From Candidatus Eiseniibacteriota bacterium (GTDB lineage Bacteria > Eisenbacteria > RBG-16-71-46 > CAVPCR01), in NCBI GenBank assembly GCA_963702435.1, contig CAVPCR010000004.1:370829-434828 (forward strand): 64,000 nt of DNA, read 5' to 3'. The position numbers and the translations under genes are program-made. The notes beneath the pieces were generated by a model. That model was not told the DNA's origin. It worked only from the letters and a program-made list of their open reading frames with translations, and searched no databases. Below are positions 40,910 through 58,646 of this stretch, piece after piece. Position 1 is the first letter of the stretch. Every line of letters starts with the position of its first letter.

Positions 40910-41058
40910 CTTGCTCTTCCTCGGGGGATTCCACCAACCACCAAAGAGACCAAGGACCCGGTGAGCAAGGCCGGTCGCTGTCCGGGATCGGTAACCGCGT
41001 GGTGGATTGTCAGCGTGCCGGTCAGCGTGCCGGCGTGGGCGACTCGGCCCCTCCGCGC

Positions 41059-41178
41059 GGATCGAGCCACCGAGAATCGAGCCGCTGAGATCCGAGCTAT
41101 CGAGATCCGAGCCGCCGAGATCCGAGCCGCCGAGATCCGAGCTATCGAGATCCGAGCCGCCGAGATCCGAGCCGCGGT
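41059..41178. repeat. 15-bp tandem repeat x 8 (GATCCGAGCCGCCGA consensus)
   Basis: Read directly: two degenerate units, then GATCCGAGC(TAT/CGC)CGA units in phase. It lies 150-270 bp upstream of the 40909 start codon. Confidence 0.9.
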
Positions 41179-41538
41179 CCTGGTCGATCGCCGACAACCT
41201 GATCCGAGTGCTCGATCCCGCAACCGGCATGGTGTTGTCGGCCGAGCGCGCGTCGAATCCGGTTCGCCCTCGTCGAGAGGGCAGCCCCCGGCCAGCGACG
41301 CTCCCCGCTACCACCCTTTGTCCAGTCCGGCCCGGCAACCCGGGACATCCGGCCGTGACCGGCCATGAAGGTCGTAACGGAACGAACTCCTGGGTTTCGG
41401 ACCGGGGGGCGCGGTGCTGGTGGCCGTCGCTGGCCCTTACCACGCGGCAACCGTGTCGTTGCGGTGAACGCCTGTGATGGACCGCGGGCTCCTGCATTGA
41501 TACTGATTGGACTACAGCGCCGATGCGGGCGGTGACCG

Positions 41539-41585
41539 CAAGGGATAGGAGTTTCCATTCGTCGCTGCGCCGGGCGGGGGCTTCG
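41539..41585 (-). repeat. Terminal fragment (copy E) of the GACGAAAGGAAATTCCTATCCCT repeat unit
   Basis: The reverse complement reads CCCGGCGCAGCGACGAATGGAAACTCCTATCCCTTG, close to copy C (CCCGGCGCCGCGACGAAAGGAAATTCCTATCCCT). Confidence 0.7.
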
Positions 41586-41669
41586 CCTGAGAAGTGCGCG
41601 GATGGAGAGCGCCACAACCCCGCATGCGCCGCCTGATGGGCGACCGTGCCACCGGCCCAGCGACCGGCT

Positions 41670-41890
41670 CTTTCGGCGATGAGGCTTCGGTGCTGCAGCC
41701 CGTCGCCGATATCTACATCCGCCTGATGCAGATGCCGGTGCTGCCCTATCTCGTGCTGGCCTGATCATCGGGTTCGGCCAGCTCGAGGCGGAGCAGGCAC
41801 GGCGGTTCGCGAAGCGCGCACCAGCGCTCCTGCTCCTGACCTTGGGGCTGACCTTCGCAGTCATCGTTGCCATGCCTGTGTTGAAGGCCG
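41670..41890 (+). pseudogene. Fragment of a dicarboxylate/amino-acid:cation symporter (DAACS) gene
   Basis: ...VLQPVADIYIRLMQMPVLPYLVLA(stop/shift)LIIGFGQL... resembles the conserved TM2-3 region of GltP-type carriers. It is interrupted and lacks both ends. Confidence 0.35.
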
Positions 41891-41984
41891 GGGTCATGGC
41901 AGCCGGCGGGCTGTAGGGAGGCAAGGCGAGCTCCCGAGGCCTCGTGCCTGAGGAGCTGGGCGACAACTGCAGCTGAGTTGGGAG

Positions 41985-42315
41985 GTTTCATCGAGCCGCA
42001 CGGCGTTGTGGACATGGAAGCCGGAGTAGGGCCAGGCGGGCATGGAGGCGGCCACGTCGTCGCTGAACAGTCCGCGCTGGACGAAGGCGCGGAGCACGGC
42101 CCGGCGGAAGGCCTCGGTCAGCACCGCGAGCGCGTGGGTGCCGAGCGGCACAAAGGTGCCGTCGAGGCGAAAGGCGCCGTCGGTAGCGAGCACGAGCAGG
42201 CGGGGGTGCCAGTTGGTGAGCGTGCCATGGGTCTGGATCGAGGAGATGACGCCGGGGACGGCGCCGTCCGCACCGAGAGTGGCCCGCCCGCTGGTGCCGA
42301 TAGCGGGATAGAATG
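41985..42315 (-). pseudogene. IS91-family (HUH/Y2) transposase internal fragment, diverged copy
   Basis: ...GVISSIQTHGTLTNWHPRLLVLATDGAFRLDGTFVPLGTHALAVLTEAFRRAVLRAFVQRGLF... is colinear with the copies at 48049 and 56318. The HUH motif is degraded (HPRLLV versus HPHLHV). Confidence 0.7.
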
Positions 42316-42530
42316 CCGCTCAGGCCCAAGGTGCGCTATCGGACCCCGTGTCGCGAGTGAAAATCGCGTAACCTCCTGGAGAGGCGCCCTGCGGTGAGAA
42401 ACCGCCGTCGCTCATGCCAGTGGTCTATCCCGGCTGAGGCGCCAGGTTGCTGTGACACGCGGCTGCCGCGGAGCCCGGTGCGGGAGCGGGGCGAACGGAG
42501 CGCGAGGTTCTGAGAGGGAGAGCGGAAAGG

Positions 42531-43385
42531 GTGATCGAGATCATGTCGCCGCGGGATGCGATCCAGTCCGAGTTCGCGCTCGGCGCGGCGGAGTCCGATC
42601 CGGGGCCGCCGCCGGCCTGGATCACCGAGCCCGCGAACGAGGAGGCGATCGCGAGCGCGCTCGCCGAGCTCGATCCTGAGCAGCAGGCGGCGGTCACGCA
42701 CGGCGAAGGGCCGCTCCTCATTGTCGCCGGCGCCGGCACCGGGAAGACGCGCGTCATTGCGCATCGCATCGCCTATCTCATCGCCGCCAGGAAGGCCGAG
42801 CCGTCCGAGATCCTCGCGCTCACCTTCACCGAGCGCGCCGCGGCGGAGATGGAGGCGCGGGTCGATCTCCTCGTCCCCTATGGCTACACGGACATGTGGA
42901 TCTCGACCTTCCATGCCTTCGGCGACCGTATCTACCGCGAGTACGCGCTCGAGATGGGGCTCTCCGATGCGGCGGTCGTCCTGAACGAGGCGGAGCGGCT
43001 CGTCTTCTTCCGCGAGCGGCTCTTCCGCCTCCCGCTCCGGCGCTTGCTGCCGCTCGGAAACCCGGTGCGCCACCTGGCGGCGCTCCTGCGCGTCGTCGCG
43101 CGGGCGAAGGACGAGGGGGTGACGCCCGAACGCTACGTCGAGCACGCGCGCATCGAGCTCGATGCAGCGGCGGCGGAGGCGGCGGCCGCCGCCGATGATC
43201 TCGACGCCGGCGCCCGCCTCGCCGCGGCGCGCCGACAGCTCGAGATCGCCGAGACCTACCGGGCCATGGACGAGGAGCTGCACGCGGCCGATCGCATCGA
43301 CTTCGGCGATCAGCTCCTCCTCACGCTCCGCCTCCTCCGCGAGCAGGAGCACGTCCTCGCCCAGGTGCGCCGCCGCTTCCGCTAA
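42531..43385 (+). pseudogene. UvrD/PcrA-like helicase, N-terminal 284 aa only
   Basis: Walker A LLIVAGAGTGKT and motif Ia ILALTFTERAA are present. The ORF stops right after ...VRRRFR, where helicases continue with the DExx box. Repeat copy C follows. Confidence 0.8.
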
Positions 43386-43436
43386 TCGCGGTCGCCGATC
43401 GCGTGCACGCCTTCGTCGATCACCTCGAGCTCCTGG

Positions 43437-43675
43437 TGGATGCCGATCATCCTCGGCAGCGCGAGGGGAGAGGTGCGCCCAGCGGGGACCGGGGGTCGGT
43501 CCGCGGGACCGCCTCGCCGCGCGGCGGCCGTGGCCACCCCGCGCCAACACCACACGCTGACGCGCGGCCGCCGCTCACGCCACCGATTAGATGCGCCGCC
43601 GCCGCCGGTCACGCCGCTTCGCCCCCCGTTCCCCGCCTCCTCCCGGCGCCGCGACGAAAGGAAATTCCTATCCCT
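43437..43675 (+). repeat. Repeat unit copy C (about 240 bp, no adjacent transposase)
   Basis: It shares with copies A, B and B' the hairpin TGCCGA-TCATCC-TCGGCA, GAGGGGAGAGGTGCGCCCAGC, the hairpin GGACCG-GGGGT-CGGTCC, GCGGCGGCCG.GGCCACCCCGCG, and the terminus GACGAAAGGAAATTCCTATCCCT. Confidence 0.85.
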
Positions 43676-43686
43676 ATCCCTTCGAC

Positions 43687-44925
43687 TCACAGCACTCTCC
43701 ACCAGGGTACGGCCAGCACGTCGGGAGCCAGCCACTCGATCGTCCTTCCCGTGTGCAGCACGAGCCCAGCGCGCGCCTTCTTGCCGTACTCTGCACGGAA
43801 GGTTCGCACATGGGCCGCGTCGCCGAGCCGGGGCCGGCCTGTCGCCTTGACCTCGACAGGCAACAAGCGCCCGCCCGCCTCGATCACGAAGTCCACCTCC
43901 TCGCCGACGCTCGTTCGCCAGTAGAAGACATCGGCTCGCTCCAGGCGCGCGTCCCGCCACGCCAGAAGATCGTGAAGGACGATGTTCTCGAGATGGGGGC
44001 CGCCGGGCTCGGCGCCCCCCCCGAGATGCAGCGCCACTCCCGTGTCACCCCAGTAGAGCTTCGGAGACTTGATGAGCCGCTTGGTGCGATTCACCGCGTA
44101 CGCGGGCACCCGCACCAGCAGGTAAGAAGTCTCGAGGAGATTCAAGTAGCGGTGCACGGTCGGCTGGGGCAGCGCGACATCTCGGCCTAGTTCCGTCTGG
44201 TTGACGAGCTGGCCCAGCCGCTGGCCGGCCGCGCGCATGAGGCGGCGGAAGTCCGGCAGTGCCGCGACCGCGGAGAGATCCGGCAAGTCGCGCTCGAGGT
44301 AGGTGCGAACGTAGCCGTCGAACCACACCGCCCGCTGCCGGTCCGTCTTCAGGTGAACGGCCGGCGTCGGAAAGCCGCCGCGGCGCGCCAGGGCACGCCA
44401 GTCCTCCGGCTCGTCGGGCTCTGCCGACATGAGGTCGAGCCATTGCTCGTCACGGGCGGCAAGCAACTCGTCCCAGAGCCCGCAGCGGCCGAGCCCGCGC
44501 TGCTCCCGGCGCGTCATCGGCCACAGGGTGAGATAGCTCGCTCGACCGGCCAGCGACTCGGAAACCCGGCGCATCAGGAGTAGATTGGCCGACCCGGTGA
44601 GCAGAAAATGCCCCGGCCGCCGGCGGCGGTCGATCGCCCGCTTGACGGCGCGCAAGAGATCCGGCTCGCGTTGCACCTCGTCGAGCGTGACCGGCTGCGG
44701 ACCGCCGAGAAGCACCTCGGGATCGCGCCGTGCCGCATCGACCGTATCCAGATCGTCGAGGGAAAGGTAACGCCTCCCCGCCGGGGCGAGATCCTGCACC
44801 AAGGTGCTCTTCCCGGTCTGGCGGGCGCCGGTCACTACGACAGCGGGCATGGTGCTGAGGCATTCGTCGAGACTGCGGCCGACAAGCCGCGGAAGGGTGG
44901 CATCCATGCCGCGAATGATAATCAT
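43687..44925 (-). CDS. AAA-type ATPase with DUF4143 C-terminal domain
   Basis: Walker A VVTGARQTGKST and Walker B-like VTLDEVQ. The overall layout matches the widespread ATPase-DUF4143 family. The ORF is intact (412 aa). Confidence 0.85.
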   Translation of the reverse strand: MIIIRGMDATLPRLVGRSLDECLSTMPAVVVTGARQTGKSTLVQDLAPAGRRYLSLDDLDTVDAARRDPEVLLGGPQPVTLDEVQREPDLLRAVKRAIDRRRRPGHFLLTGSANLLLMRRVSESLAGRASYLTLWPMTRREQRGLGRCGLWDELLAARDEQWLDLMSAEPDEPEDWRALARRGGFPTPAVHLKTDRQRAVWFDGYVRTYLERDLPDLSAVAALPDFRRLMRAAGQRLGQLVNQTELGRDVALPQPTVHRYLNLLETSYLLVRVPAYAVNRTKRLIKSPKLYWGDTGVALHLGGGAEPGGPHLENIVLHDLLAWRDARLERADVFYWRTSVGEEVDFVIEAGGRLLPVEVKATGRPRLGDAAHVRTFRAEYGKKARAGLVLHTGRTIEWLAPDVLAVPWWRVL

Positions 44926-45084
44926 TCACGCTGTGAATAGACAAGGGCCAAGCGGGATCCCGGGCGGGCGGCGTCCGCGGCCGGCCCGCGGGAGCCACGG
45001 GCCGGGGGCTCGCTCCTTCTGTGTCGCCCAGCCATTCCTTCCGCACCGCGGCCTGGATCCCGGCGTGGGCGTCGGAGATGCACA

Positions 45085-45182
45085 AGGGATAGGAATCTCC
45101 TTTCGTCAATAGCCCGGGAGGAGGAGGAGAACGGGGAGCCAAGCCGCGCGCGCGACCGACCGGGAGGCGTCCGCGGCGTGGC
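45085..45182 (-). repeat. Repeat unit copy D (terminal about 98 bp, inverted relative to C)
   Basis: The reverse complement reads ...GCCACGCCGCGGACGCCTCCCGGTCGGTCGCGCGCGCGGCTTGGCTCCCCGTTCTCCTCCTCCTCCCGGGCTATTGACGAAAGGAGATTCCTATCCCTTG, nearly identical to the end of copies A and B'. Confidence 0.85.
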
Positions 45183-45185
45183 GGC

Positions 45186-45471
45186 GGCAGCTCGCTCTCG
45201 CGGTCCTCTGTCTCCGGTCGCGTGCAGAGCGCCGTGACGAAGCGGCTGCCGAACTCGCGCCAATGGCTGAACACCGGCGGAAGGACACCTGCCCCACCTC
45301 GGCGGCTCCGAGCCGGAGGAGGCCATGCCCGGCTCCGCGATGGAACGCCCGTCGGATTCGTTCGCCGAGCACCGGGCCGAGCAAGGGGGCATCGTCCTGC
45401 GGCACGATCACCAGGCGACCGTGGGGCGTGAGAGAAGGGGTCAGTCCAAGCTCGGTCGAGGTGGACGTCAT
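45186..45471 (-). pseudogene. N-terminal fragment of an SNF2-family helicase (SNF2-associated N-domain), frameshifted
   Basis: MTSTSTELGLTPSLTPHGRLVIVPQDDAPLLGPVLGERIRRAFHRGAGHGLLRLGAAEVGQV, then in another frame FSHWREFGSRFVTALCTRPE. This matches my recollection of the conserved N-terminus of bacterial SNF2/HepA-like helicases. It ends at repeat copy D. Confidence 0.5.
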
Positions 45472-45788
45472 CTCTGCGCGCCCTTGCCGAGGTGGCGCAT
45501 GAGATCGTCGATGAACCACGAGGGGGGAGGTGCTCCGGCAGACCGGTACTCGACAGGGACGACGACGTAGAAGCCGCGCTTCGGGACGACCAGGCGGCCC
45601 TTGCCGGCGAGCCGCATCACTGCCTTCTTGAGCATCACGGCGCTCGTCCCGAGCGCGGCCAGCGCCTCGGTGCGATCGAAGGTGTACCGACCTGCGCCCT
45701 GCAGGTCGTTCACAAGATCGGCCAGCGCTCGGTGTCTTGGTTCGTTGTCAGCCACGTCAGCTCCCCCAGGGACCATTGTCGGATGCAC
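45468..45788 (-). pseudogene. AbiEi-like wHTH protein, truncated after about 100 aa
   Basis: ...YTFDRTEALAALGTSAVMLKKAVMRLAGKGRLVVPKRGFYVVVPVEYRSAGAPPPSWFIDDLMRHLG... matches the N-terminal part of AbiEi-family antitoxins, which normally continue for 100 or more further aa. Confidence 0.5.
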
Positions 45789-46578
45789 AAAGCACCTCGG
45801 AGAGGGCCTTTTTGCAATCGTTATCGCGATTCAGCCTTGACCTGCCGGCGGGCGAAATGCGGTGGCTGCGCGGTTGCGCGCCGAGGTCCAAGGGGCTCAA
45901 GCGCCCTGAGTTCGGCGTTCGGCGGCGAGGTTGCCCTTCAAGCGACGGCCGCCTCTCCCACCGGGAGCCGTCAACCCGGCGTCACAAGGAGGTCTCAGTT
46001 CATCGCGTGATTCGAACCTGCAACCGGTGCCGTCGCTTTGGGCAGCAAGCTCAGGGCGGGCACGAAGCCGCAGGTACCTCATGGCCCGAATCGCCGCCGG
46101 TTCGGTGAGGAAGTCCATGTGTGCTCCTCTCTGGCTGAAGAAGCAGGTGGGGACTGGCTCCGGCGGCTGGAACGGGAGAGGCGTCATAGGCCCTGCCGAA
46201 GCTAGTGACCACGACGCCTTTCGCGATGCAGCCGGGACGCCGTCTGGCGGCAGCGCTTCTTCTTTGGCCGTCGTGTCTACCGCTGACGCTGCTGTACGGC
46301 TCCCGTACCCGCCCCGCCTCGCAGACCGGCACATATGGCTCCCCATCTTGGACGGTGTGCGAACGATTCTCGTTCTTCGAGTCCCCCGGGTCATCCGGCC
46401 GGACCATCCGCCTCCCCCCGCGGCCGAGGGCCCCATCCATCCCGAGGCGACCAGGGAGATGGCATGGAGCAGGGCCGATCGGACGTGCTGCGTCCAGCTT
46501 CTCGGCAGCGCGACGCGGTGCGAGACGTGAGAGGACGTCATCCTGCGCTCCCGGTAACTCCGCTGCCGCTCTTCGCAG

Positions 46579-46607
46579 TGGACCCGCCGCCCGTGCCAAG
46601 GTAGAAT
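46579..46607 (+). promoter_or_regulatory. Possible sigma70-like promoter for the nucleotidyltransferase pair
   Basis: TAGAAT at 46602-46607 with TGGACC 17 bp upstream. The ATG at 46617 is only 10 nt downstream, which implies a leaderless or near-leaderless mRNA. Confidence 0.25.
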
Positions 46608-46616
46608 CGGTTCCGC

Positions 46617-47093
46617 ATGGACTTCGGTGAAGCCAAACGAATCCTGGCCGCCTTCGAGCGAGAGGGAGTCCGTTACGTGCTCGTGGGCTCGATGGCCATG
46701 GCCGCGCAGGGGCTCATCCGAGCCACGCGGGACATGGACTTGTTCGTGGCTGCCGACCCGGAGAACATCGCCCGTCTCCGCTGTGCGCTCAAGACGCTCT
46801 TCCCTGAGGATCCCAATGTGGACCTGATCACGGCAGAGGACCTCGGGGGAAGCTATCCCGCGATCGAGTACACACCACCTCATGGCCTCTACTCGCTCGA
46901 CATCCTGACCCGGCTTGGCGAGGCGTTCCGGTTCGAGGACTTGGAGGCGGAGGCGATCGTCGTGGAGGGCATCACGATCCGGGTTGCCACGCCGCGCACG
47001 CTTTACCGCATGAAGAGGGGGACGGCCCGGCCGCAGGACCGCATTGACGCCGCCGCTATCCGTGAACGATTCGATCTCCCGGAGGATGCCTGA
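46617..47093 (+). CDS. Nucleotidyltransferase-fold protein (MNT/DUF6036-like)
   Basis: ...VRYVLVGSMAMAAQGLIRATRDMDLFV... fits the G[SG]-x(9-13)-DxD minimal NTase motif. 158 aa, intact. Confidence 0.7.
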   Translation: MDFGEAKRILAAFEREGVRYVLVGSMAMAAQGLIRATRDMDLFVAADPENIARLRCALKTLFPEDPNVDLITAEDLGGSYPAIEYTPPHGLYSLDILTRLGEAFRFEDLEAEAIVVEGITIRVATPRTLYRMKRGTARPQDRIDAAAIRERFDLPEDA

Positions 47094-47404
47094 TGGGAGT
47101 GCGGCGATACCGATCCGTGGAGGACATGCCCGCGGGCTCTCCCCGCCGCCCGCTGGATCCCGAGAACCTGGTGATTGCTTTCGGGCTCATGGATCTCGCG
47201 CACCGCATCGCCGCATTGTCATTCCCGCCCGGCATCAAGAAGTACCGCTCCCATGACGAAATGCTGCGCGCGCGCGAACGGTGGGCGGCGGCCGGGACCC
47301 ACGGGTCACGCGACGGAGACGATTGCGGACTTCAAGGCCGCGGGGATCCGCACCTACATCCCCGAACCCAAAACCCCCGGGGGCCGTCGCCGCTGGAAGG
47401 GTAA
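47093..47404 (+). CDS. Small partner ORF of the NTase (C-terminus probably altered)
   Basis: The ATG overlaps the NTase stop (TGATG). RRYRSVEDMP...PPGIKKYRSHDEMLRARERW resembles small proteins I recall next to such NTases. The last about 35 aa run into a transposase remnant. Confidence 0.45.
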   Translation: MGVRRYRSVEDMPAGSPRRPLDPENLVIAFGLMDLAHRIAALSFPPGIKKYRSHDEMLRARERWAAAGTHGSRDGDDCGLQGRGDPHLHPRTQNPRGPSPLEG

Positions 47405-47420
47405 ACCACCGGCCCCGTAG
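47290..47420 (+). pseudogene. IS5/IS1182-like DDE transposase fragment
   Basis: An alternate frame reads ...ETIADFKAAGIRTYIPEPKTPGGRRRWKGK..., resembling the conserved ...GI..YI.EP......W.G... block of these transposases. Only about 40 aa. Confidence 0.3.
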
Positions 47421-47604
47421 TATCTGCCTGTGCCTCCCGAAAACTGTCTCTCTGTCCCTCCCGAAAACCCCGTAGCCGCCTGCCCCAATTGAGTATGCGC
47501 CCGCTCGGCCTCGCCGTCCTGCCGTTCTTCCCGTGCCGACCAGCGGAATCGGGTACTCCCTTGCGTCGTGGTAGTCTCCCTGCTCTCCCCGCAGGCCCGA
47601 GCGG

Positions 47605-48048
47605 TTGCCGCGACCCATGACGCCTATCTTCGCCGCCCTCTTCGCGTTCCTCGGCGCCAGCCTTCGTTCCCGGGCCTCGATGCAGCTTGAGATCCTCGCG
47701 CTCCGGCATCAGTTGGCCGTCTGCCAGCGATCTCTGAAGCGACCGCGTCTCCGGCCCGCCGACCGCCTCCTCTGGCCCTGGCTCGCCCGCCTCTGGCCGC
47801 GCTGGCGAGAAGCCCTCATGATCGTTCAGCCGAGAACCGTCATCACCTGGCAACGGCGCCGCTTCCGCGAGCACTGGACCCGTCTCTGCCGCTCGGGGAA
47901 ACCTGGACGGCCGTTGGTAGCGAAAGAAGTGCGTGTTCTCATCCGGCGGCTGTCGGCCGCCAATCCACTCTGGGGAGCACCGAGGATTGTCGGCGAGCTC
48001 GCCAAGATCGGAATCGCCGTGACCAAGGCCACGGTCGAGAAGTACACG
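47605..48048 (+). pseudogene. N-terminal 148 aa of an rve-type integrase/transposase (HTH part only)
   Basis: ...LEILALRHQLAVCQRSLKRPRLRPADRLLW...IVQPRTVITWQRRRFREHW...LIRRLSAANPLWGAPRIVGELAKIGIAVTKATVEKYT is the usual N-terminus of this transposase class. The DDE core is absent. Confidence 0.65.
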
Positions 48049-49193
48049 CTCGCCAACTGGCATCCCCACCTGCACGTGCTCGCCACCGACGGCGCCTTTC
48101 GGCCCGACGGCACGTTCGTGCCGCTCGGTGTTCACTCGCTCGCGGTGCTGACCGAGGCGTTCCGCCGCGCCGTGCTCCGCGCCTTCGTCCAGCGCGGCCT
48201 GTTCAGCGCCGAGGTGGCCGCCTCCATGCGCGCCTGGCCCCACTCCGGCTTCCATGTCCACAACGCCGTGCGGCTCGATGGGGATGACCTCGGCGGCCTC
48301 TTGCCGCTCGCTCGCTACGCAGCCCGCGCCCCCCTCGCCCTCACCCGCATCACCTACGACGCTGCAAAGCCGCAGGTCCTGGTTGCCTCCGACAAGGCCG
48401 AAGGGCCCACCGCCGGGACGCATGCCTTCGCTCCTCTCGACTTCCTTGCCCAGCTCCTCACCCACATCCCGCGCCAGGGCGAACACCTCGTGCGCTACTA
48501 CGGCGCGTATGCGAGCCGCACCCGCGGCACCTGGCGCCGGCAAGGGATCGGCCCCTGGGTCGAGCGGCAGCGCGGCGAGGGGGACCAAGAGGACGAGCCA
48601 CCGGGTGCACCCCGCGATGCCAACGCTGATCCTGGCGGTGACCCGGTGGTGCCACCTCCGGAACCGCTATCCCCATCGCGGGCCGCGCTCAGGAAGCGCT
48701 GGGCGGAACTCCTCCGTCGCCTCTACGAGGTCGATCCGCTGAGTTGCCCGCGGTGCGGGGGCGAGATGCGGATCATCGCCTTCCTCCTCGATCCACCGGT
48801 GATCGACGCCATCCTCCGCCACCTCCGCCGCGCTGCCTACGACGCGCGGGCCGGCCCGTGGGCGGAGGTGGTTGGGAGCAATGCGGTGGCGGGGGACGCC
48901 GGCCCGGCGGGGTGCGGCTAGCCCGGCCGGCCGCGGCCAGCGCGCGGTTTGGGGTGCTGCCGATCACCATCGGCAGCGCAAGGGGAGAGGTGCGCCCAGC
49001 CGCGACCGGGCGTCGGTCGGCGGGGCCGCATCGCGGTGCGGCGGCCGCGGCCACCCCGCGGCAACGTCGGGCCACGACGCGCAGTCGCCGGTCACGCCAC
49101 GCCGCGGACGCCTCCCGGTCGGTCGCGCGCGCGGCTTGGCTCCCCCTTCTCCTCCTCCTCCCAGGCTATTGACGAAAGGAAATTCCTATCCCT
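47939..49193 (+). repeat. Direct repeat copy A (1,255 bp): integrase remnant, IS91 transposase fragment and 272-bp structured tail
   Basis: It matches 56211-57465 at a constant +8272 offset. I found 5 differing bases by eye (48161, 48229, 48586-48588). It ends ...GACGAAAGGAAATTCCTATCCCT followed by TG (CTTG). Confidence 0.9.
48049..48921 (+). pseudogene. IS91-family HUH/Y2 transposase, C-terminal about 290 aa, fused in frame to the integrase fragment
   Basis: HUH motif WHPHLHVLATDG, tyrosine motif HLVRYYGAYASRTRG and C-terminal CPRCGGEM zinc ribbon are present. The N-terminal zinc-binding region is missing. Confidence 0.75.
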
Positions 49194-49195
49194 TG

Positions 49196-49428
49196 ATCGG
49201 CTGTACGACGCTGAGGGCCAGAACGTCGGGTACTTTCGCGGTGATGTCGCGTATTCGCTTCAGGGAGATTACCTCGGCGAGCTATACGACGACGAGCGCA
49301 TCGGGAAGCGCACGACGCGCATGCAGAGCAGAGGAAGCGCGATGATGGGGCACGTCGGGATCGCCCTGATGAGGCAAGTCGGACGCGTCGGCCTGTCGGT
49401 TGCTGGGTGGTCAGACCCGGATTTCTAA
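49196..49428 (+). pseudogene. C-terminal part of a 4-fold-beta-flower-like protein
   Basis: ...LYDAEGQNVGYFRGDVAYSLQGDYLGELYDDERIG...WSDPDF has only about 2 of the expected 4 repeats. It begins directly at the end of repeat A without its own start. Confidence 0.35.
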
Positions 49429-49482
49429 CCTCGAGGCAGCTCTGACGCGGGAGTTGGGGTAATGGAGTTGCGGAGGGACGCT

Positions 49483-49517
49483 AAAAAGGGCCCCAGGTGA
49501 GTGCCTGGAGCCCTTTT
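49483..49517. terminator. Canonical bidirectional intrinsic terminator
   Basis: AAAAA-GGGCCCCAGG-TGAGTG-CCTGGAGCCC-TTTT lies between convergent ORFs. This A/T-flanked form is unusual in this window. Confidence 0.7.
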
Positions 49518-51579: not shown

Positions 51580-52419
51580 TTATCGCGCCTTGGCGCGGCC
51601 GCGGTCGGGGACCTTCGGCACGGTGAAGACCTCGAGGTAGAGCTTTTCGTCGAGCTGGCGTGCATCACGCTGAACGGCAGCATCGAGGAGCTCTCCGGCC
51701 ATGGTCATGAGGATGCGGTAGTTGCCGGCGGCGTGCTCGCAGAGCGTGGTCATGAGCTCGGTCGTCATCAAGTGCGGGTTTCCGGTCTGGTTGAGGGCGT
51801 GACGCAAGCATTCGAGCAGTTCCTGTGGAGTGGCGGGCTGGAGGACGAGGCGAACACGCATCCGGCTGCCGAGGGGAAGGAGCTCCTCGCCGCGGAAGTT
51901 CTCGGTCAGGCGAGAGTCACCGCCGAGGACGACGGTGAGGAGCGCGCGGGAGTCGAGCTCGGTGGCGCAGAGCAGGCGGAGCTCGTTGAGCACGGCGGGC
52001 CGCATCTCCTGTGCCTCGTCGACGATGAGCACGGGACGGAGGAGAGCGGCTTCGATGTGCGCTTGCCAGCGTTCGCGGAGCACCCGGGCTCCGGCCCAGC
52101 GGTTGTGGGGTGAGAGCTGAACGCCGAACAGGTCGCCGAGCTCGCGGTAGAAGTCGGGGACGCCGCTCTGGGGACGGGTGAGGATCCCGACCATGAGGTC
52201 ACGATGTCCGGAGAGCTTGTCGACGAGGAGCCGCAGCGCGACCGACTTGCCGAGTCCGGGATCGCCGGTGATCAGGGCGAAGCCTCCTTCGCGGGTCAGG
52301 TTCTCGACGCGCCACGAGAAGTGCTCGAGCTTGGGAGTGAGGAGGAGCGCCTCGATGGGGACCTCGGGCGAGAAGGGGTTCCACTTGAGGCCATGGAGCG
52401 AGAGGAGCTTCGGGTTCAT
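51580..52419 (-). CDS. TniB/ExeA-like AAA+ transposition ATPase
   Basis: Walker A ITGDPGLGKS and Walker B VLIVDEAQ. The ATG overlaps the transposase stop (ATGA at 52416-52419). Confidence 0.85.
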   Translation of the reverse strand: MNPKLLSLHGLKWNPFSPEVPIEALLLTPKLEHFSWRVENLTREGGFALITGDPGLGKSVALRLLVDKLSGHRDLMVGILTRPQSGVPDFYRELGDLFGVQLSPHNRWAGARVLRERWQAHIEAALLRPVLIVDEAQEMRPAVLNELRLLCATELDSRALLTVVLGGDSRLTENFRGEELLPLGSRMRVRLVLQPATPQELLECLRHALNQTGNPHLMTTELMTTLCEHAAGNYRILMTMAGELLDAAVQRDARQLDEKLYLEVFTVPKVPDRGRAKAR

Positions 52420-53936
52420 GGCTGGTCCTCCTGGAGAGTGGTCTGCGGGGGCGGCGCGTGGTGCGCGGCGAGTGGATACGGTGCGGGTTTCGGGAGATAG
52501 GCCGGCGGGAGGCCGGTGGCGGCGTAATCTTTCATCAGCTGGCGCATCAACGGCGCCATGCCGGACTCGGTCGGCGGATCCTGATCGCGGGTGGCGAGGG
52601 GATCTTCAGGCAGTCGACGCCTGAGGCCGTCAGCGTTACGTGCCTTGTCGAGGGGGTAAAGTTGACAGAGTACCGCTCCCGTGCGTTCGTCGACGAGGTG
52701 AACCTGAGAGAGGTCCCAGGTGGCGTAGCGCACGGCGACGCGTTCGAGGGTGCGGTAGTGCGCGGGGATCTCGAAGCGGCATCCCTCGAGCGTCAGGGTG
52801 CCGTCGCTACGGCGCTGAGTGCGCCGCACTTCGATCGTGAAGGCGAGGCGCAGCGGCTGGCTGTCGGGGCTCGATCGGCCGACGTCGGGTCCTTGGAGGT
52901 AGCGTTCGACGGGGGACTGGTGGATCTCGGAGTGCACGGTGCGGTTGTACTCCATCTCGGCCCAAGCCTGGGTGGCCTCGTTGAGAAGCGGCAGCGTCAG
53001 GTCGCGCACTCCTTCGAGCATGGCGATCAGCCGTCCTTCGAGCTGGGCCCAGAAGACTTCTTGTTTGGCGTTCTGGTAGGCGGAGTAGGGCAAGGTCAGG
53101 TGATGGAGGATGCCGAGCCGGGCCAGGCCCTGGGTCACCTCGCCAGCCTTCATGGCGGTGCCGTTGTCGCTCATCAACGACCTCGGCAACGAGCGCTTCT
53201 GAATCGCCTGCGAGAGACCATGCACGAGGTTCTCCGCGTTCTCAGCGTGGTACCATTGCGCGTGACAGACCAATCGTGAGCGATCATCGAGGATCGCCAG
53301 AACCTGCGGGATCACCCACTCGCCGTCGGGCGTGAGCACCTTCTTCGAGCCGGCGTGGAAGTCGAGATGCCAAAGCCCGTGGACGTACTCGGCCTCGAAG
53401 CTACGCACCTCGCGCTCATCGAGCCGTGCTTCGGCGCGTCGCACCCCGGTGGTGTCGGCGCTGGAGACCCGGCGCCGCTTCCACAGCCCGTTGGCCTTCA
53501 TGAACCGACGGACGGTCGAGTACGAGGGTAGCGGCCCGAGGGTCGGATCCGCACCCGCCAGCACTGCGAGGTTGTCGTAGTGCAGCGCGTAGCTCCAACC
53601 GCGGTGGGCCTTGTACAGTTCGTGAATCGCCTGCTTGAGCCCGTCCCCGATCGCGAGCGCCCGGCCGGAGTCCTTGCGGATCTTGCGCCGAAGCACCCTG
53701 ACTGGATCGAACCGCTCCCGCTTCGCCTGGTGATACCAACGTTCGATGGTCGACACCCCGAACTGCATCGGTCGAGCGGTCACGGGGTGGAGCCACTGCT
53801 TCTCGGCCAGCTTCCGGAGCTCGCCCTGAAGCTCGCCACGCGCCGGCGGCGCCGCCAGGAGCGGGCCGATCACCGAGAAGCGCAGATGCGCCCAGCGTTC
53901 GTGGACCGTGAGCTTACGGTTCTCGTCGTCTGCCAT
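52416..53936 (-). CDS. DDE (rve-type, Mu-like) transposase
   Basis: The catalytic blocks are WHLDFH, LMSDNGTAM and YQNAKQEVFW (D, D, 35-E spacing). The N-terminal HTH region is present. 506 aa, intact. Confidence 0.9.
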   Translation of the reverse strand: MADDENRKLTVHERWAHLRFSVIGPLLAAPPARGELQGELRKLAEKQWLHPVTARPMQFGVSTIERWYHQAKRERFDPVRVLRRKIRKDSGRALAIGDGLKQAIHELYKAHRGWSYALHYDNLAVLAGADPTLGPLPSYSTVRRFMKANGLWKRRRVSSADTTGVRRAEARLDEREVRSFEAEYVHGLWHLDFHAGSKKVLTPDGEWVIPQVLAILDDRSRLVCHAQWYHAENAENLVHGLSQAIQKRSLPRSLMSDNGTAMKAGEVTQGLARLGILHHLTLPYSAYQNAKQEVFWAQLEGRLIAMLEGVRDLTLPLLNEATQAWAEMEYNRTVHSEIHQSPVERYLQGPDVGRSSPDSQPLRLAFTIEVRRTQRRSDGTLTLEGCRFEIPAHYRTLERVAVRYATWDLSQVHLVDERTGAVLCQLYPLDKARNADGLRRRLPEDPLATRDQDPPTESGMAPLMRQLMKDYAATGLPPAYLPKPAPYPLAAHHAPPPQTTLQEDQP

Positions 53937-53993
53937 CGCGTTCGCCTCCCTTTCGGGCGGCCGAGCCTGGCCGCCGTGATGTGGGAGCGGACG

Positions 53994-54638
53994 CTAATCG
54001 CGGTCACCCTCGGCCCGCACCGCGCGTCTTCTGCGGGTGGCCCGCGGGGTCACCCGGCGCCGCACATAGCTTGCGCATTCCGGCGCCGACGCGGTGGTGA
54101 TCGGGGAGAGGAATCGCAGGAGGGCGATCAGCCGGGAACGGTCATCGCCAGGGAAGCGACCGAGGAGCACGCGGGGTAGATCCATCGCGAGCAGGCGTCC
54201 GGTGAACCGGCCGCGGGCCACGCTCCAGAACCGGCTACGCGCGAAGGTGGTGCGCCACCACCGGCGCCACCGGGCCAGGGTCCGGGAGCTCACCCCCAGC
54301 CATTGCCGAAGCTGCCGTTGAGCGCGCCCCCGCCCTCGCATCGCCGCCAGGACGACCACCGCCGCGGAGTAAACCCGCCGGCCCAAGAAGCGTACCGAAG
54401 GTGGCGTCAGCCGCCGCCGGCACCCCTCCACGGCGCAGCACAAGCTCAGTCGGAGGTCATACCGGACCGCCAACCGCTCTGGAAGACCCCGCGGCTTACG
54501 GGGGTAGTTCGCCTGGTCGACCCTCCCGCCGCACCACCCGCACCCCCCGCGGCGGGCCGCCCGGGCGAGATCCTGGTCGTACTGAAAAAGGACCTCGTAG
54601 AGCCGCTCGTCCCTGAGCAGATCCTGGTACAATCCCAT
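53994..54638 (-). CDS. Cys-rich (zinc-finger-like) accessory protein of the transposon
   Basis: GGCGWCGGRVDQANYPRKPRG...CCAVEGC... It is the first gene of the element. I recall similar ORFs next to such transposases, but their function is unknown. Confidence 0.5.
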   Translation of the reverse strand: MGLYQDLLRDERLYEVLFQYDQDLARAARRGGCGWCGGRVDQANYPRKPRGLPERLAVRYDLRLSLCCAVEGCRRRLTPPSVRFLGRRVYSAAVVVLAAMRGRGRAQRQLRQWLGVSSRTLARWRRWWRTTFARSRFWSVARGRFTGRLLAMDLPRVLLGRFPGDDRSRLIALLRFLSPITTASAPECASYVRRRVTPRATRRRRAVRAEGDRD

Positions 54639-54795
54639 CCTCCTTCGTCTTTGCTGGACTGAAGGAGGAAACCCCCTCGGGGCGCTTGAATCAAGCTCCT
54701 TGAGGGGGTTCTGCTTGCACTCCCTGATGGCGCCTCGGACGATTCCATCAGTGATCGTGATCCGAAACGCCGTCCCCGACCATCAACTTTCTTGC

Positions 54796-56046: not shown

Positions 56047-56210
56047 ATCGGCCTCCTGCCTGCCGGGATGGGTCCCTGAATGATACTCCTGCGAAGAGCG
56101 GGGCAAGAAGAAATTGTGTATCCGCTAAGACGCTGCAACAACGACGGTTGCAATAGGCAGTGAAACGAGCGGACCACGAGAGAAGAGACCGAAGGGACCG
56201 ACCGATCATT

Positions 56211-57465
56211 TCATCCGGCGGCTGTCGGCCGCCAATCCACTCTGGGGAGCACCGAGGATTGTCGGCGAGCTCGCCAAGATCGGAATCGCCGTGACCAAGG
56301 CCACGGTCGAGAAGTACACGCTCGCCAACTGGCATCCCCACCTGCACGTGCTCGCCACCGACGGCGCCTTTCGGCCCGACGGCACGTTCGTGCCGCTCGG
56401 TGTTCACTCGCTCGCGGTGCTGACCGAGGCTTTCCGCCGCGCCGTGCTCCGCGCCTTCGTCCAGCGCGGCCTGTTCAGCGCCGAGGTGGCCGCCTCCATG
56501 CTCGCCTGGCCCCACTCCGGCTTCCATGTCCACAACGCCGTGCGGCTCGATGGGGATGACCTCGGCGGCCTCTTGCCGCTCGCTCGCTACGCAGCCCGCG
56601 CCCCCCTCGCCCTCACCCGCATCACCTACGACGCTGCAAAGCCGCAGGTCCTGGTTGCCTCCGACAAGGCCGAAGGGCCCACCGCCGGGACGCATGCCTT
56701 CGCTCCTCTCGACTTCCTTGCCCAGCTCCTCACCCACATCCCGCGCCAGGGCGAACACCTCGTGCGCTACTACGGCGCGTATGCGAGCCGCACCCGCGGC
56801 ACCTGGCGCCGGCAAGGGATCGGCCCCTGGGTCGAGCGGCAGCGCGGCGAGGGGGACGCGGAGGACGAGCCACCGGGTGCACCCCGCGATGCCAACGCTG
56901 ATCCTGGCGGTGACCCGGTGGTGCCACCTCCGGAACCGCTATCCCCATCGCGGGCCGCGCTCAGGAAGCGCTGGGCGGAACTCCTCCGTCGCCTCTACGA
57001 GGTCGATCCGCTGAGTTGCCCGCGGTGCGGGGGCGAGATGCGGATCATCGCCTTCCTCCTCGATCCACCGGTGATCGACGCCATCCTCCGCCACCTCCGC
57101 CGCGCTGCCTACGACGCGCGGGCCGGCCCGTGGGCGGAGGTGGTTGGGAGCAATGCGGTGGCGGGGGACGCCGGCCCGGCGGGGTGCGGCTAGCCCGGCC
57201 GGCCGCGGCCAGCGCGCGGTTTGGGGTGCTGCCGATCACCATCGGCAGCGCAAGGGGAGAGGTGCGCCCAGCCGCGACCGGGCGTCGGTCGGCGGGGCCG
57301 CATCGCGGTGCGGCGGCCGCGGCCACCCCGCGGCAACGTCGGGCCACGACGCGCAGTCGCCGGTCACGCCACGCCGCGGACGCCTCCCGGTCGGTCGCGC
57401 GCGCGGCTTGGCTCCCCCTTCTCCTCCTCCTCCCAGGCTATTGACGAAAGGAAATTCCTATCCCT
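56211..57465 (+). repeat. Direct repeat copy B (1,255 bp)
   Basis: See copy A. It starts inside the integrase remnant (TCATCCGGCGGCTGTCGG...) and ends ...TTCCTATCCCT. Confidence 0.9.
56291..57193 (+). pseudogene. IS91-family transposase C-terminal fragment, copy B
   Basis: 300-aa ORF identical to copy A apart from substitutions such as MRAWPH/MLAWPH and GDQED/GDAED. It begins within the residual integrase codons (MTKATVEKYT/LANWHPHLHV). Confidence 0.75.
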
Positions 57466-57896
57466 GAGATGCGGATCATCGCCTTCCTCCTCGATCCACC
57501 GGTGATCGACGCCATCCTCCGCCACCTCCGCCGCGCTGCCTACGACGCGCGGGCCGGCCCGTGGGCGGAGGTGGTTGGGAGCAATGCGGTGGCGGGGGAC
57601 GCCGGCCCGGCGGGGTGCGGCTAGCCCGGCCGGCCGCGGCCAGCGCGCGGTTGGGGGTGCTGCCGATGATGATCGGTTGCGCGAGGGGAGAGGCGCGCCC
57701 TGCGGGGATCGGGTGTCGCTCGGCGGGGCCGCTTCGCGGTGCGGCGGCCGCGGCCACCCCGCGGCAACGTCGGGCCACGACGCGCAGTCGCCGGTCACGC
57801 CACGCCGCGGTCGCCTCCCGGTCGGTCGCGCGCACCACCTCGCTCCCCGTTCTCCTCCTCCTCCCGGGCTATTGACGAAAGGAAATTCCTATCCCT
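57466..57896 (+). repeat. Partial tandem copy B' (last about 150 bp of the transposase gene plus tail), diverged
   Basis: It restarts at GAGATGCGGATCATCGCC (equivalent to 48763 in copy A) and runs to a second ...GACGAAAGGAAATTCCTATCCCT. About 90% identical to B by eye. Confidence 0.85.
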
Positions 57897-57910
57897 TATC
57901 CCTTATCCCT
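57890..57910 (+). repeat. TATCCCT x 3 microrepeat at the repeat terminus
   Basis: Read directly. Copy C has TATCCC x 2 at the equivalent point (43670-43681). Confidence 0.85.
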
Positions 57911-58625
57911 GCGGCCAGAAGGGGCTCGTCGTGATGCCCCAGGTCCTCGCGAACACCTCGGGGAGGACGAGCATCGCCATGTCGCAGCGCACCCCGTCGC
58001 ACTGGTGGGCGATACGGGACAGCTCGCCGAGCATCGCCTCCTGCAAGGCGGGGTTGCCGTAGTTCAACTGGAAGGTGTCGGGCCAGCCGTCAAAGTAAGG
58101 GTCGCGGCCGTACGCGAGGATCCGGTTCCCGGCGCGCGCCCAGTTCTGGGGCTCGGCCGCGAGCTTCGCCTCGGTCCCGGCCACGAAGTACTCGGCGTGC
58201 TCCGCCACCCACCGGTGGTCCGGCGCCATGTGGTTGGGGACGAAATCGAGGATCAGGCGGAGATCGCGGCGCCGGAGCCTCTCGCGCAGGCGGGCGAGAG
58301 CCTGATCACCGCCGAAGTCCTCGTGGACTCGGTAGTCGCGCACCGCGAAGCACGAGCCCGTGACGTCGGCCTCTGAGAAATCGGGCAGCACCCGCCGATA
58401 CTCGGCGAGCCACTCGGGCTTCGACCGGGAGACGCGCCGCGCGGCGTCCCCCGTCTGCCAAACGCCGAGGAACCAGACGAGGTCGAAGCCGTTCTCGGCC
58501 AGTTGGTCGAGCTCCTCATCCGTCACATCGTCGAGCGTCGCCGGGCGGCGGAGCTCCCGCGAGAGCTCCGCCAGCCTGACGCGCGTGTTGATCTGGAAGA
58601 GCGACGGGTACCGTGGTGAGGACAT
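57903..58625 (-). pseudogene. GH13 alpha-amylase-family glycosidase, 3'-truncated
   Basis: ...FDLVWFLGVWQTG...LILDFVPNH...GVRCDMAM... are GH13 regions I, II and III. The ORF runs into the TATCCCT repeats (…PFWPQG-stop) well before the expected end. Confidence 0.7.
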
Positions 58626-58646
58626 CGCCGCCTCCTGGCACCCGGC

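What the first reader, a model, noticed from the sequence alone, without database searches (positions are those of the whole stretch)
45085..49193. Two segments bounded by inverted copies of the repeat terminus carry mostly gene fragments
The termini of D (45085, facing left) and A (49193, facing right) point outward and bound a 4.1-kb segment. That segment holds, in order:
- an SNF2 N-terminal fragment
- an AbiEi-like fragment
- an about 830-bp stretch with no convincing gene
- an intact NTase two-gene pair
- an IS5-like scrap
- an integrase N-terminal fragment fused to an IS91 transposase fragment

In the same way, E (41541) and C (43675) bound a 2.1-kb segment holding a symporter scrap, an IS91 fragment and a UvrD-like fragment.

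IS91-family elements are not supposed to have long terminal inverted repeats. Two independent inverted-repeat-bounded, fragment-collecting units therefore suggest a different or hybrid mobilisation mode. One-ended rolling-circle capture followed by inversion is one possibility, and a transposon using these ends as inverted repeats is another.
Basis: inference. Interest (0 to 1): 0.6.

Follow-up and report, generated by a model that had tools for sequence, protein, structure and literature searches.

The report
Leftover IS91-type origin ends, not a new transposon
The inverted repeats are real, but they are leftover origin-side ends of ordinary rolling-circle (IS91-family) jumping genes piled up in a defence-gene island, and nothing suggests the two bracketed segments move as units.

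Summary
The 23-nt terminus GACGAAAGGAAATTCCTATCCCT occurs six times in the window: E 41541(-), C 43675(+), D 45085(-), A 49193(+), B 57465(+) and F 57896(+). E/C and D/A do point outward around 2.1-kb and 4.1-kb stretches of mostly broken genes.

The terminus is the oriIS (origin) end of an IS91-family rolling-circle element. A full-length relative on a public contig (L003) is about 1.83 kb. It encodes a 483-aa Zn_Tnp_IS91 + Y2_Tnp transposase 98% identical to A's remnant. It carries this terminus once, about 270 bp after the transposase stop, and its left end is unrelated, so the intact element has no long inverted repeats.

The window holds six origin ends and no termination (terIS) end. Inner break points differ: about 40, 99-101, 235, 431 and 1255 bp.
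- E lies in the same order as a decayed transposase remnant and the helicase-gene flank found next to the intact element in L003.
- C and a copy on another contig (L002) start at the same internal CTGC-plus-hairpin site.
- B starts immediately after a GTTC in A.

This matches the known IS801/IS91 pattern of right-end "miniatures", read-through capture and later rearrangement. No second copy, empty site or target signature supports the segments as mobile units.

The parts
41541..41580 (-). E: last ~40 nt of an oriIS end of the C/E subfamily, with the terminus facing left
   Evidence: E matches C at 35/40 nt and A at 30/40 nt. It is in the same order and orientation as L003 2411-2450.
41581..41988 (.). 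Filler with no homology to the element. It replaces about 874 bp of the intact element. The 'symporter scrap' claim is not significant.
   Evidence: One search shows no alignment to L003 1538-2410. One search gives SDF E = 0.057 at about 41660-41788(+).
41989..42287 (-). IS91 transposase remnant (codons ~172-270), belonging to the same decayed copy as E
   Evidence: 90% nt identity to L003 1239-1537 and 88% aa identity to P0001 172-270.
42285..42489 (-). DNA that flanks the terIS side of the intact element in L003. The terIS end itself and the 5' part of tnpA (641 bp) are deleted here.
   Evidence: L003 395-597 aligns at 81-87%. L003 598-1238 is absent from the window.
42531..43384 (+). 5' fragment of a UvrD/GajB-like helicase gene, cut just before its DExx box
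   Evidence: In one search, relatives in other runs continue after 43384 with CATCCTGGTCGACGAG. Window 42513-42919 equals L003 407-1 at 98.5%.
43385..43437 (.). 53-bp scrap of another gene, lying between the helicase fragment and C
   Evidence: separate contigs in four runs match it exactly and continue differently on both sides.
43441..43675 (+). C: solo 235-bp oriIS 'miniature' of the C/E subfamily. It starts at the internal hairpin site and has no transposase.
   Evidence: 78% identity to A and 38/40 nt to L008.
43687..44925 (-). Intact AAA_14/DUF4143 ATPase (PADLOC candidate defence family PDC-S01), lying between the two segments and outside both elements
   Evidence: Junctions with C and D are confirmed by Logan contig L001.
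45085..45183 (-). D: last 99-101 nt of an A-type oriIS end, with the terminus facing left
   Evidence: 97% identity to A and B, 98% to L003.
45283..45471 (-). N-terminal fragment of an SNF2-family helicase gene. It is frameshifted and cut at D.
   Evidence: hits P0308 and P0331 carry SNF2-rel_dom and DUF3670.
45483..45725 (-). N-terminal 81 codons of an AbiEi antitoxin-type gene
   Evidence: (PADLOC AbiEi E = 1.7e-22, profile 3-83 of 258).
46326..47456 (+). Module also present in L002 at 98.5% identity: the 3' end of an unknown gene, a small NTase (46617-47093) and a 103-aa partner (47093-47404)
47457..48044 (+). Left end and first ~157 codons of an IS3/IS481-like 'integrase' IS
   Evidence: Searches give weak HTH_32, IS3 and IS481 hits. 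The boundary is set by L002 and L007 and by the X1 loose end at 47452.
48045..48921 (+). IS91-family transposase codons 193-483, with the HUH and Y2 motifs kept and the Zn-binding N-terminus lost. It is fused in frame to the integrase fragment.
   Evidence: The junction is present in an X5 contig.
48952..49193 (+). A: oriIS unit running from the hairpin CTGCCGAT-cacc-ATCGGCAG to the terminus, followed by TG (CTTG spans the junction)
56211..57465 (+). B: copy of 47939-49193 at 99.6% identity. Its left boundary in A lies directly after GTTC.
57466..57896 (+). F: 431-bp right-end fragment set in tandem behind B. Its terminus is followed by two extra TATCCCT heptamers, and it cuts an alpha-amylase gene.

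Best explanation
**What the terminus is.** It is the oriIS (origin, right-hand) end of an IS91-family rolling-circle insertion sequence of about 1.83 kb. The order is terIS, then a Zn-finger + HUH/Y2 transposase gene, then a roughly 270-bp tail ending in ...GGAAATTCCTATCCCT.

**What the window holds.** It lies in a defence-gene island of a probable Candidatus Eisenbacteria MAG. It contains six decayed copies from two subfamilies (C/E and A/B/D/F).

**Why origin ends survive.** Transposition starts at oriIS and copies towards terIS. Products that stop early keep the origin end and lose the rest. Products that read through terIS carry neighbouring DNA along. Later deletions and insertions erode the copies further.

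**What the two 'inverted-repeat-bounded units' are.** Each is the DNA between two separate copies that happen to lie back to back.
- E is the end of a decayed minus-strand copy whose terIS side adjoins the UvrD-like fragment.
- C is a solo 235-bp miniature.
- D is a remnant of about 100 bp.
- A is a 5'-truncated copy fused to an integrase-IS fragment.

**Shown:** the family identity, the single-terminus structure of the intact element, the polarity of the remnants, and the fact that E, its transposase remnant and the helicase flank lie in the same order as in L003.

**Inferred:** which copies arose by early termination (C, L002, B) and which by rearrangement (D, E), and whether the helicase fragment was captured by read-through.
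For: **Family identity**
- A's ORF has Y2_Tnp (3.8e-17) and NCBIfam transpos_IS91.
- P0001 is full length, 98% identical over A's part, and carries Zn_Tnp_IS91 and Y2_Tnp.

**Structure of the intact element**
- In L003 the transposase gene is at 727-2178 and the terminus at 2450.
- The left end is at about 622-624, where homology with the independent copy L004 begins.
- There is no inverted copy of the terminus and no duplicated target sequence.
- The gene order, the lack of target duplication, the tetranucleotide next to oriIS and the subterminal palindromes match the family description in PMC13181058.
- The junction reads CTTG at A, D and E. Folding shows a GGAAnTTCC palindrome near the terminus and a 9-bp hairpin at the inner end.
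- The 23-nt core is kept in diverged subfamilies from other metagenomes.

**Polarity of the remnants**
- The window has six origin ends and no terIS end. L003 598-1238 has no match in the window.

**E belongs to one decayed copy**
- L003 395-597, 1239-1537 and 2411-2450 align in the same order and orientation to window 42489-42285, 42287-41989 and 41580-41541.

**Discrete inner boundaries**
- A, C and L002 share a boundary at CTGC plus a hairpin.
- B begins right after GTTC in A.

**Precedent**
- IS801 right-end fragments of 229, 360 and 679 nt, each bordered by a left-end-like tetranucleotide, made up 26% of observed IS801 transposition events.
- IS801 also carried 290-1431 nt of upstream DNA in some events.
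- Most genomic IS801 fragments were attributed to reorganisation rather than one-ended transposition (PMC3189936).

**Junctions seen in independent short-read contigs**
- C|ATPase|D in L001 at 100% identity.
- The integrase|IS91 junction in X5.
Against: - The inner boundaries of D and F show no left-end-like tetranucleotide, so not every copy fits early termination.
- The bases after the terminus vary. Only 'CT' is constant across 12 contexts, so a CTTG-type target is not established.
- The helicase flank shared with L003 has very uneven identity: 98.5% in one part against 81-90% in the rest. That could reflect a shared ancestral locus plus recombination rather than capture by read-through.
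- L003's terIS side runs off the contig end, so this cannot be resolved.
- Both inverted pairs are matched by subfamily, which is mildly suggestive of pairing. Local hopping explains it equally well.
Confidence: 0.78

Rival explanations
1. Each segment is a composite rolling-circle transposon. One oriIS starts transfer and the inverted oriIS at the other end acts as the stop signal, so the enclosed fragments move together.
For: - Two outward-facing pairs, each matched by subfamily.
- D keeps about 100 nt, more than the 82 nt of right end reported as sufficient for IS91.
- The natural left end (CACTTCCGTGAAC...) has a faint resemblance to the inverted terminus.
Against: - E keeps only about 40 diverged nt.
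- The intact element has no such inverted end.
- No unit recurs. Only an internal 1.1-kb piece of D-A recurs in L002, in a different arrangement.
- None of the five other loci with the terminus has a second copy.
- No window copy has a complete transposase.
- An inverted oriIS lies on the other strand from the one that is transferred.
Confidence: 0.06
2. The arrangement is an assembly artefact: repeat-induced chimeric joins in a metagenome-assembled contig.
For: - The region holds six copies of a repeat within 16 kb.
- It comes from a MAG.
- No public run holds more than 25% of the sampled words of 41000-49500, so most junctions could not be checked.
Against: - An independent short-read contig spans C-end|ATPase|D-end at 100% identity.
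- An X5 contig spans the integrase|IS91 junction and begins at the A/B repeat boundary.
- The copies differ in sequence (76-99.6% identity) and in length, which collapsed or mis-joined repeats would not produce.
- X7 and X4 show the same ATPase-terminus neighbourhood with small differences.
Confidence: 0.05
3. The inverted copies arose when homologous recombination between IS copies, or replication template switching, inverted DNA after insertion. On this view the fragments record inversion and deletion break points rather than transposition products.
For: - Bardaji et al. concluded that most genomic IS801 fragments come from reorganisation.
- The inner boundaries of D and E show no stop-site signature.
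- The island is a patchwork that also holds a 53-bp scrap and a Tn7/Mu-like module.
Against: - An inversion with a break inside an ori unit should leave the complementary, hairpin-side piece somewhere nearby. No such piece is in the window.
- C, L002 and B have discrete boundaries resembling stop sites.
- This reading overlaps with the best explanation and differs only in emphasis.
Confidence: 0.1

Closest known systems
IS801 right-end 'miniature' fragments and IS801-mediated capture of upstream DNA in Pseudomonas syringae pv. phaseolicola (Bardaji et al. 2011, PMC3189936)
   Same: - Transposase-less fragments that keep the intact origin end.
- Discrete inner start points (229, 360 and 679 nt there; about 235-248, 431 and 1255 nt here).
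- Neighbouring DNA on the terIS side carried along.
- Many genomic fragments are better explained by rearrangement.
   Different: - Different host phylum and a distant element.
- Mobility is not demonstrated here.
- Only some boundaries (C/L002 at CTGC plus a hairpin, B next to GTTC) show a tetranucleotide that resembles a stop site.
IS91 / IS1294 (IS91 family; HUH-Y2 rolling-circle insertion sequences; PMC13181058)
   Same: - Transposase with a Zn-binding N-terminal domain and a Y2 HUH domain.
- Order terIS, tnpA, oriIS.
- No long terminal inverted repeats and no target duplication.
- CTTG at three junctions, subterminal palindromes, and a size of about 1.83 kb.
   Different: - No orf121.
- The terminus and left-end sequences are specific to this lineage.
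- Target preference is unresolved (CTNN).
- A's transposase remnant is 29% identical to the second IS91-family remnant in L002, so at least two lineages are present.
ISCR elements and eukaryotic Helitrons (rolling-circle elements that collect gene fragments)
   Same: - Copies keep one defined end and have ragged other ends.
- Gene fragments accumulate beside them.
- Ends are found in tandem.
   Different: - No resistance genes and no integron context.
- The transposase is the IS91 type with a Zn domain, not a Rep/helicase fusion.
- Capture is inferred, not shown.

Membership tests
IS91 family | Transposase with the Y2 HUH domain (PF04986) and the N-terminal zinc-binding domain (PF14319) | tested here: met
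   P0001 on L003 has both domains. The window copies keep only the Y2 part, P0001 codons 193-483.
IS91 family | Two different ends (terIS and oriIS), with no long terminal inverted repeats | tested here: met
   L003 has one terminus, at 2450. Its left end at about 622-624 (defined against L004) is unrelated, and there is no inverted copy in 12 kb.
IS91 family | tnpA transcribed towards oriIS, which lies a short distance downstream | tested here: met
   The stop codon is at 48921 and the terminus at 49193, a gap of 272 bp. L003 has the stop at 2178 and the terminus at 2450.
IS91 family | No target-site duplication | tested here: met
   The flanks of L003...CCCACAGAA and GCTACTACG..., share no repeat. 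This rests on one intact copy.
IS91 family | Specific target tetranucleotide (CTTG or GTTC) adjacent to oriIS | tested here: inconclusive
   CTTG spans the junction at A, D and E. Across 12 contexts only CT is constant.
IS91 family | Subterminal palindromes at the ends | tested here: met
   There is a GGAAnTTCC palindrome near the terminus, a 9-bp hairpin at the inner boundary of the unit, and GAACC...GGTTC at the L003 left end.
IS91 family | One-ended or early-terminated transposition that gives origin-anchored products | tested here: inconclusive
   The window has 6 origin ends and 0 terIS ends. Some boundaries are discrete and B abuts GTTC. This is consistent, but mobility is not observable from sequence.
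   E has about 40 nt against C's 235 nt. D has 99-101 nt against A's 1149 nt or more.
   The genome and metagenome scans gave five loci, each with a single terminus. No 45084-49194 or 41540-43676 joint was seen in the runs laid across those sites. The search was limited because the own genome could not be scanned.
   The flanks are ...GATGCACA | unit | TGATCGG... for D-A and ...GACCGCA | unit | ATCCCTTC... for E-C. Neither shows a direct repeat.

The most novel reading that the evidence does not exclude
The ~240-bp hairpin-to-terminus unit may be a self-contained non-autonomous 'mini-IS91' that full-length relatives mobilise in trans. It would tend to insert beside existing origin ends, as in the B|F tandem and in L002 beside another IS91's own end. 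Solo units in either orientation could then seed repeated read-through capture, so that back-to-back pairs such as D-A act as growing, occasionally mobile collections of defence-gene fragments.
Probability: 0.1. Interest if true: 0.5.

Novelty: new member of a known kind. Interest (0 to 1): 0.2.

Why it matters
The main value is correct annotation. These repeats mark the origin ends of an IS91-family element in a poorly studied phylum, probably Candidatus Eisenbacteria. They explain why neighbouring defence genes (UvrD/GajB-like, SNF2, AbiEi) are broken.

The locus is also a clean natural example of the origin-end polarity of rolling-circle IS debris. It offers a candidate internal stop site (CTGC plus a hairpin) that could be tested. 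It does not point to a new transposition mechanism.

Tried and rejected
- **Genome tools.** Copy number and empty sites in the window's own genome and its relatives could not be examined.
- **Six-frame translation.** Reading stops as X solved this.
- **Read validation.** No public run holds more than 25% of the sampled words of 41000-49500. Logan contigs are short and shallow. Only three junctions could be confirmed, and no empty-site joint was seen.
- **Collection scans.** The genome contigs and metagenome-contig scans with the terminus pattern gave only 1 and 4 loci, each with one terminus.
- **Failed look-ups.** P0002 was not on record. Toleman et al. 2006 was not in the paper library, so the published oriIS consensus was not compared directly.
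- **Is the ATPase cargo of these ends?** Rejected. It lies beyond oriIS for both C and D. An 85%-identical homologue in another context has no such motif nearby.
- **Is L003 the orthologous locus?** Its origin-side flank has no nucleotide or protein similarity to the window.
- **SNF2 fragment.** Pfam found nothing, even for a peptide read through the frameshift. The identification rests on the profile-free search.
- **Unfiltered tblastx.** One run gave only noise.

Full report
**Observation**

The 23-nt terminus GACGAAAGGAAATTCCTATCCCT occurs six times in the window with at most two mismatches, against 0 expected by chance. The copies are E 41541(-), C 43675(+), D 45085(-), A 49193(+), B 57465(+) and F 57896(+).

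Self-comparison shows how much of the repeat each copy keeps.
- A (47939-49193) and B (56211-57465) are 99.6% identical over 1255 bp.
- F is a 431-bp right-end piece set in tandem behind B, at 94.7% identity.
- C keeps 235 bp, at 78% identity to A.
- D keeps 99-101 bp, at 97% identity.
- E keeps about 40 bp.

E and C share a sequence variant (35 of 40 nt). D groups with A, B, F, L002 and L003.

**What the terminus is**

A's ORF (47575-48918) carries the Y2_Tnp domain and matches NCBIfam transpos_IS91. A homology search found P0001, 483 aa and 98% identical over A's part, with both Zn_Tnp_IS91 and Y2_Tnp. Its contig L003 (ENA assembly, 24.9 kb) holds a full-length element.
- The transposase gene is at 727-2178 and the terminus at 2450.
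- The left end is at about 622-624, where homology with an independent, 87%-identical copy (L004) begins.
- That gives about 1.83 kb, one terminus, an unrelated left end (CACTTCCGTGAACC..., with a GAACC/GGTTC palindrome) and no duplicated flanks.

This is the IS91-family plan described in PMC13181058. That paper describes terIS, tnpA and oriIS in that order, no long inverted repeats, no target duplication, a target tetranucleotide (CTTG or GTTC) next to oriIS, subterminal palindromes, and read-through of terIS in 1-14% of events.

In the window the junction reads CTTG at A, D and E. A GGAAnTTCC palindrome sits near the terminus, and a 9-bp hairpin sits at the inner end of the ~240-bp tail. Diverged subfamilies in other metagenomes keep the same 23-nt core. 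The terminus is therefore the origin end, oriIS.

**Anatomy of the E-C segment**

Three blocks of L003 align in the same order and orientation to the window's minus strand.
- L003 395-597 aligns to 42489-42285.
- L003 1239-1537 aligns to 42287-41989.
- L003 2411-2450 aligns to 41580-41541.

E is therefore the origin end of one decayed minus-strand copy. That copy lost 641 bp, including terIS and the 5' part of the transposase gene. About 874 bp of it was replaced by 408 bp of unrelated DNA.

Its terIS side adjoins a UvrD/GajB-like helicase gene fragment (Pfam 4.8e-41). The same flank sits next to terIS in L003: L003 1-407 equals window 42919-42513 at 98.5%. L003's origin-side flank is unrelated to the window. 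This fits co-transfer of the helicase 5' region by read-through. However, the uneven identity along the shared flank leaves a shared ancestral locus plus recombination open.

The helicase gene stops at 43384. Relatives in other runs continue there with the DExx box. A 53-bp scrap of another gene follows at 43385-43437. Then comes C, a solo 235-bp origin unit.

**Anatomy of the D-A segment**

From left to right the segment holds the following.
- D, a remnant of about 100 bp.
- An SNF2 N-terminal fragment. It matches the N-termini of two SNF2-rel_dom/DUF3670 proteins, although Pfam gave no direct hit.
- The first 81 codons of an AbiEi gene (PADLOC E = 1.7e-22).
- About 600 bp with no identified content.
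- A 1131-bp module (46326-47456) that recurs at 98.5% identity in L002, where its first gene is whole.
- The left end and N-terminus of an IS3/IS481-like IS. The boundary at 47456/47457 is fixed by L002, by L007 and by a loose end in run X1.
- IS91 transposase codons 193-483, fused in frame to the integrase fragment.
- The origin unit A.

Between the two segments lies an intact AAA_14/DUF4143 ATPase of the PADLOC family PDC-S01. It lies beyond oriIS for both C and D, so it is not their cargo. An 85%-identical homologue in another context has no such ends nearby.

**Why this is ordinary IS91 biology**

- The window has six origin ends and no terIS end. If each remnant kept one end at random, this would happen about 1 time in 64.
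- Copies from three different contexts (A after its own transposase gene, C after the helicase debris, L002 after a different IS91-family remnant that is only 29% identical) begin at the same internal point. That point is a CTGC followed by the hairpin CTGCCGAT-cacc-ATCGGCAG, which resembles a terIS, that is, a tetranucleotide plus a subterminal palindrome.
- B's left boundary in A lies directly after GTTC.
- Bardaji et al. (PMC3189936) trapped IS801 right-end fragments of 229, 360 and 679 nt, each bordered by a left-end-like tetranucleotide. These made up 26% of IS801 transposition events. They also saw IS801 carry 290-1431 nt of upstream DNA. They concluded that most fragments found in genomes come from reorganisation.
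- D and F lack any stop-site signature and fit that last class.

**Why the inverted pairs are not units**

- The intact element has no inverted end.
- The two ends of each pair are unequal remnants.
- D is as close to B, L002 and L003 as it is to A.
- With six copies in mixed orientation, two outward-facing neighbour pairs out of five is unremarkable, since each pair has a one-in-four chance.
- No target duplication flanks either unit.
- Only an internal piece of D-A recurs (L002), and it does so in a different arrangement relative to IS91 debris.
- The five other loci that carry the terminus each have a single copy.
- No window copy has a complete transposase.

**Assembly**

- An independent short-read contig, L001, spans C-end|ATPase|D-end at 100% identity.
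- An X5 contig spans the integrase|IS91 junction and starts at the A/B repeat boundary.
- X7 and X4 show the ATPase next to origin ends with small differences: no ATCCCT duplication in X7, and 40 extra nt in X4.
- The other junctions could not be checked, because no run holds more than 25% of the sampled words of the region.

**Limits**

L002 comes from 'Candidatus Eisenbacteria bacterium MFD09779.bin.1.77', on a contig of 725,716 bp. The window's contig is 758,751 bp. They probably belong to the same MAG, but this is inferred.

**Verdict**

This is a new member of a known kind, with interest 0.2.

Noticed in passing
window 57890-57915; L002 4940-4990; window 43669-43690: The terminus is followed by two extra tandem copies of its last 7 nt (TATCCCT) in F and in L002. 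In C it is followed by one extra ATCCCT, and a variant in run X7 lacks that extra copy. These may be slippage or repeated nick-and-rejoin footprints at the oriIS cleavage site.
   Followed up: partly
window 47575-48918 and 56129-57190: There is an in-frame chimeric ORF. The HTH N-terminus of an IS3/IS481-like transposase is fused to the HUH/Y2 catalytic part of the IS91 transposase, with the zinc domain lost. It is present in both A and B. It may be chance (1 in 3 for the reading frame) or a functional hybrid.
   Followed up: no
window 43687-44925: The DUF4143 ATPase (PADLOC PDC-S01) belongs to a very large and very conserved family: 6803 proteins at E <= 1e-100, and the best 120 hits are 81-86% identical to it. 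Near-identical copies occur in sediment, soil and freshwater metagenomes from many studies, which suggests frequent horizontal spread.
   Followed up: partly
window 51583-54782: A Tn7/Mu-like module lies on the minus strand between A and B: an HTH protein, an rve/Mu-transpos_C transposase and an AAA_22 (TnsC/TniB-like) ATPase.
   Followed up: no
window 10843-19056: A giant ORF of 2738 aa contains about 17 tandem 252-bp (84-aa) repeats at 75-93% identity.
   Followed up: no
window 41048-41190: A 15-bp tandem repeat (about 8 units) lies just left of terminus E, upstream of a long minus-strand ORF.
   Followed up: no
window 57906-58646: An alpha-amylase catalytic-domain fragment (Pfam profile positions 51-193 of 446) is cut off by terminus F. 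This marks the right edge of the IS91-riddled island.
   Followed up: no
L007 326-579; window 47455-47712: In an unrelated metagenome contig, an IS91 origin end abuts the same integrase-type IS (78% identity), but in the opposite orientation and at a different internal position. The two IS types meet repeatedly.
   Followed up: partly
L002 5206-5260: The 248-bp origin unit in L002 sits directly behind an AT-rich sequence that resembles an origin end (ATGAAATATCTTATGC) and belongs to a different IS91-family remnant. Like the B|F tandem, this hints that new copies tend to land beside existing origin ends.
   Followed up: partly
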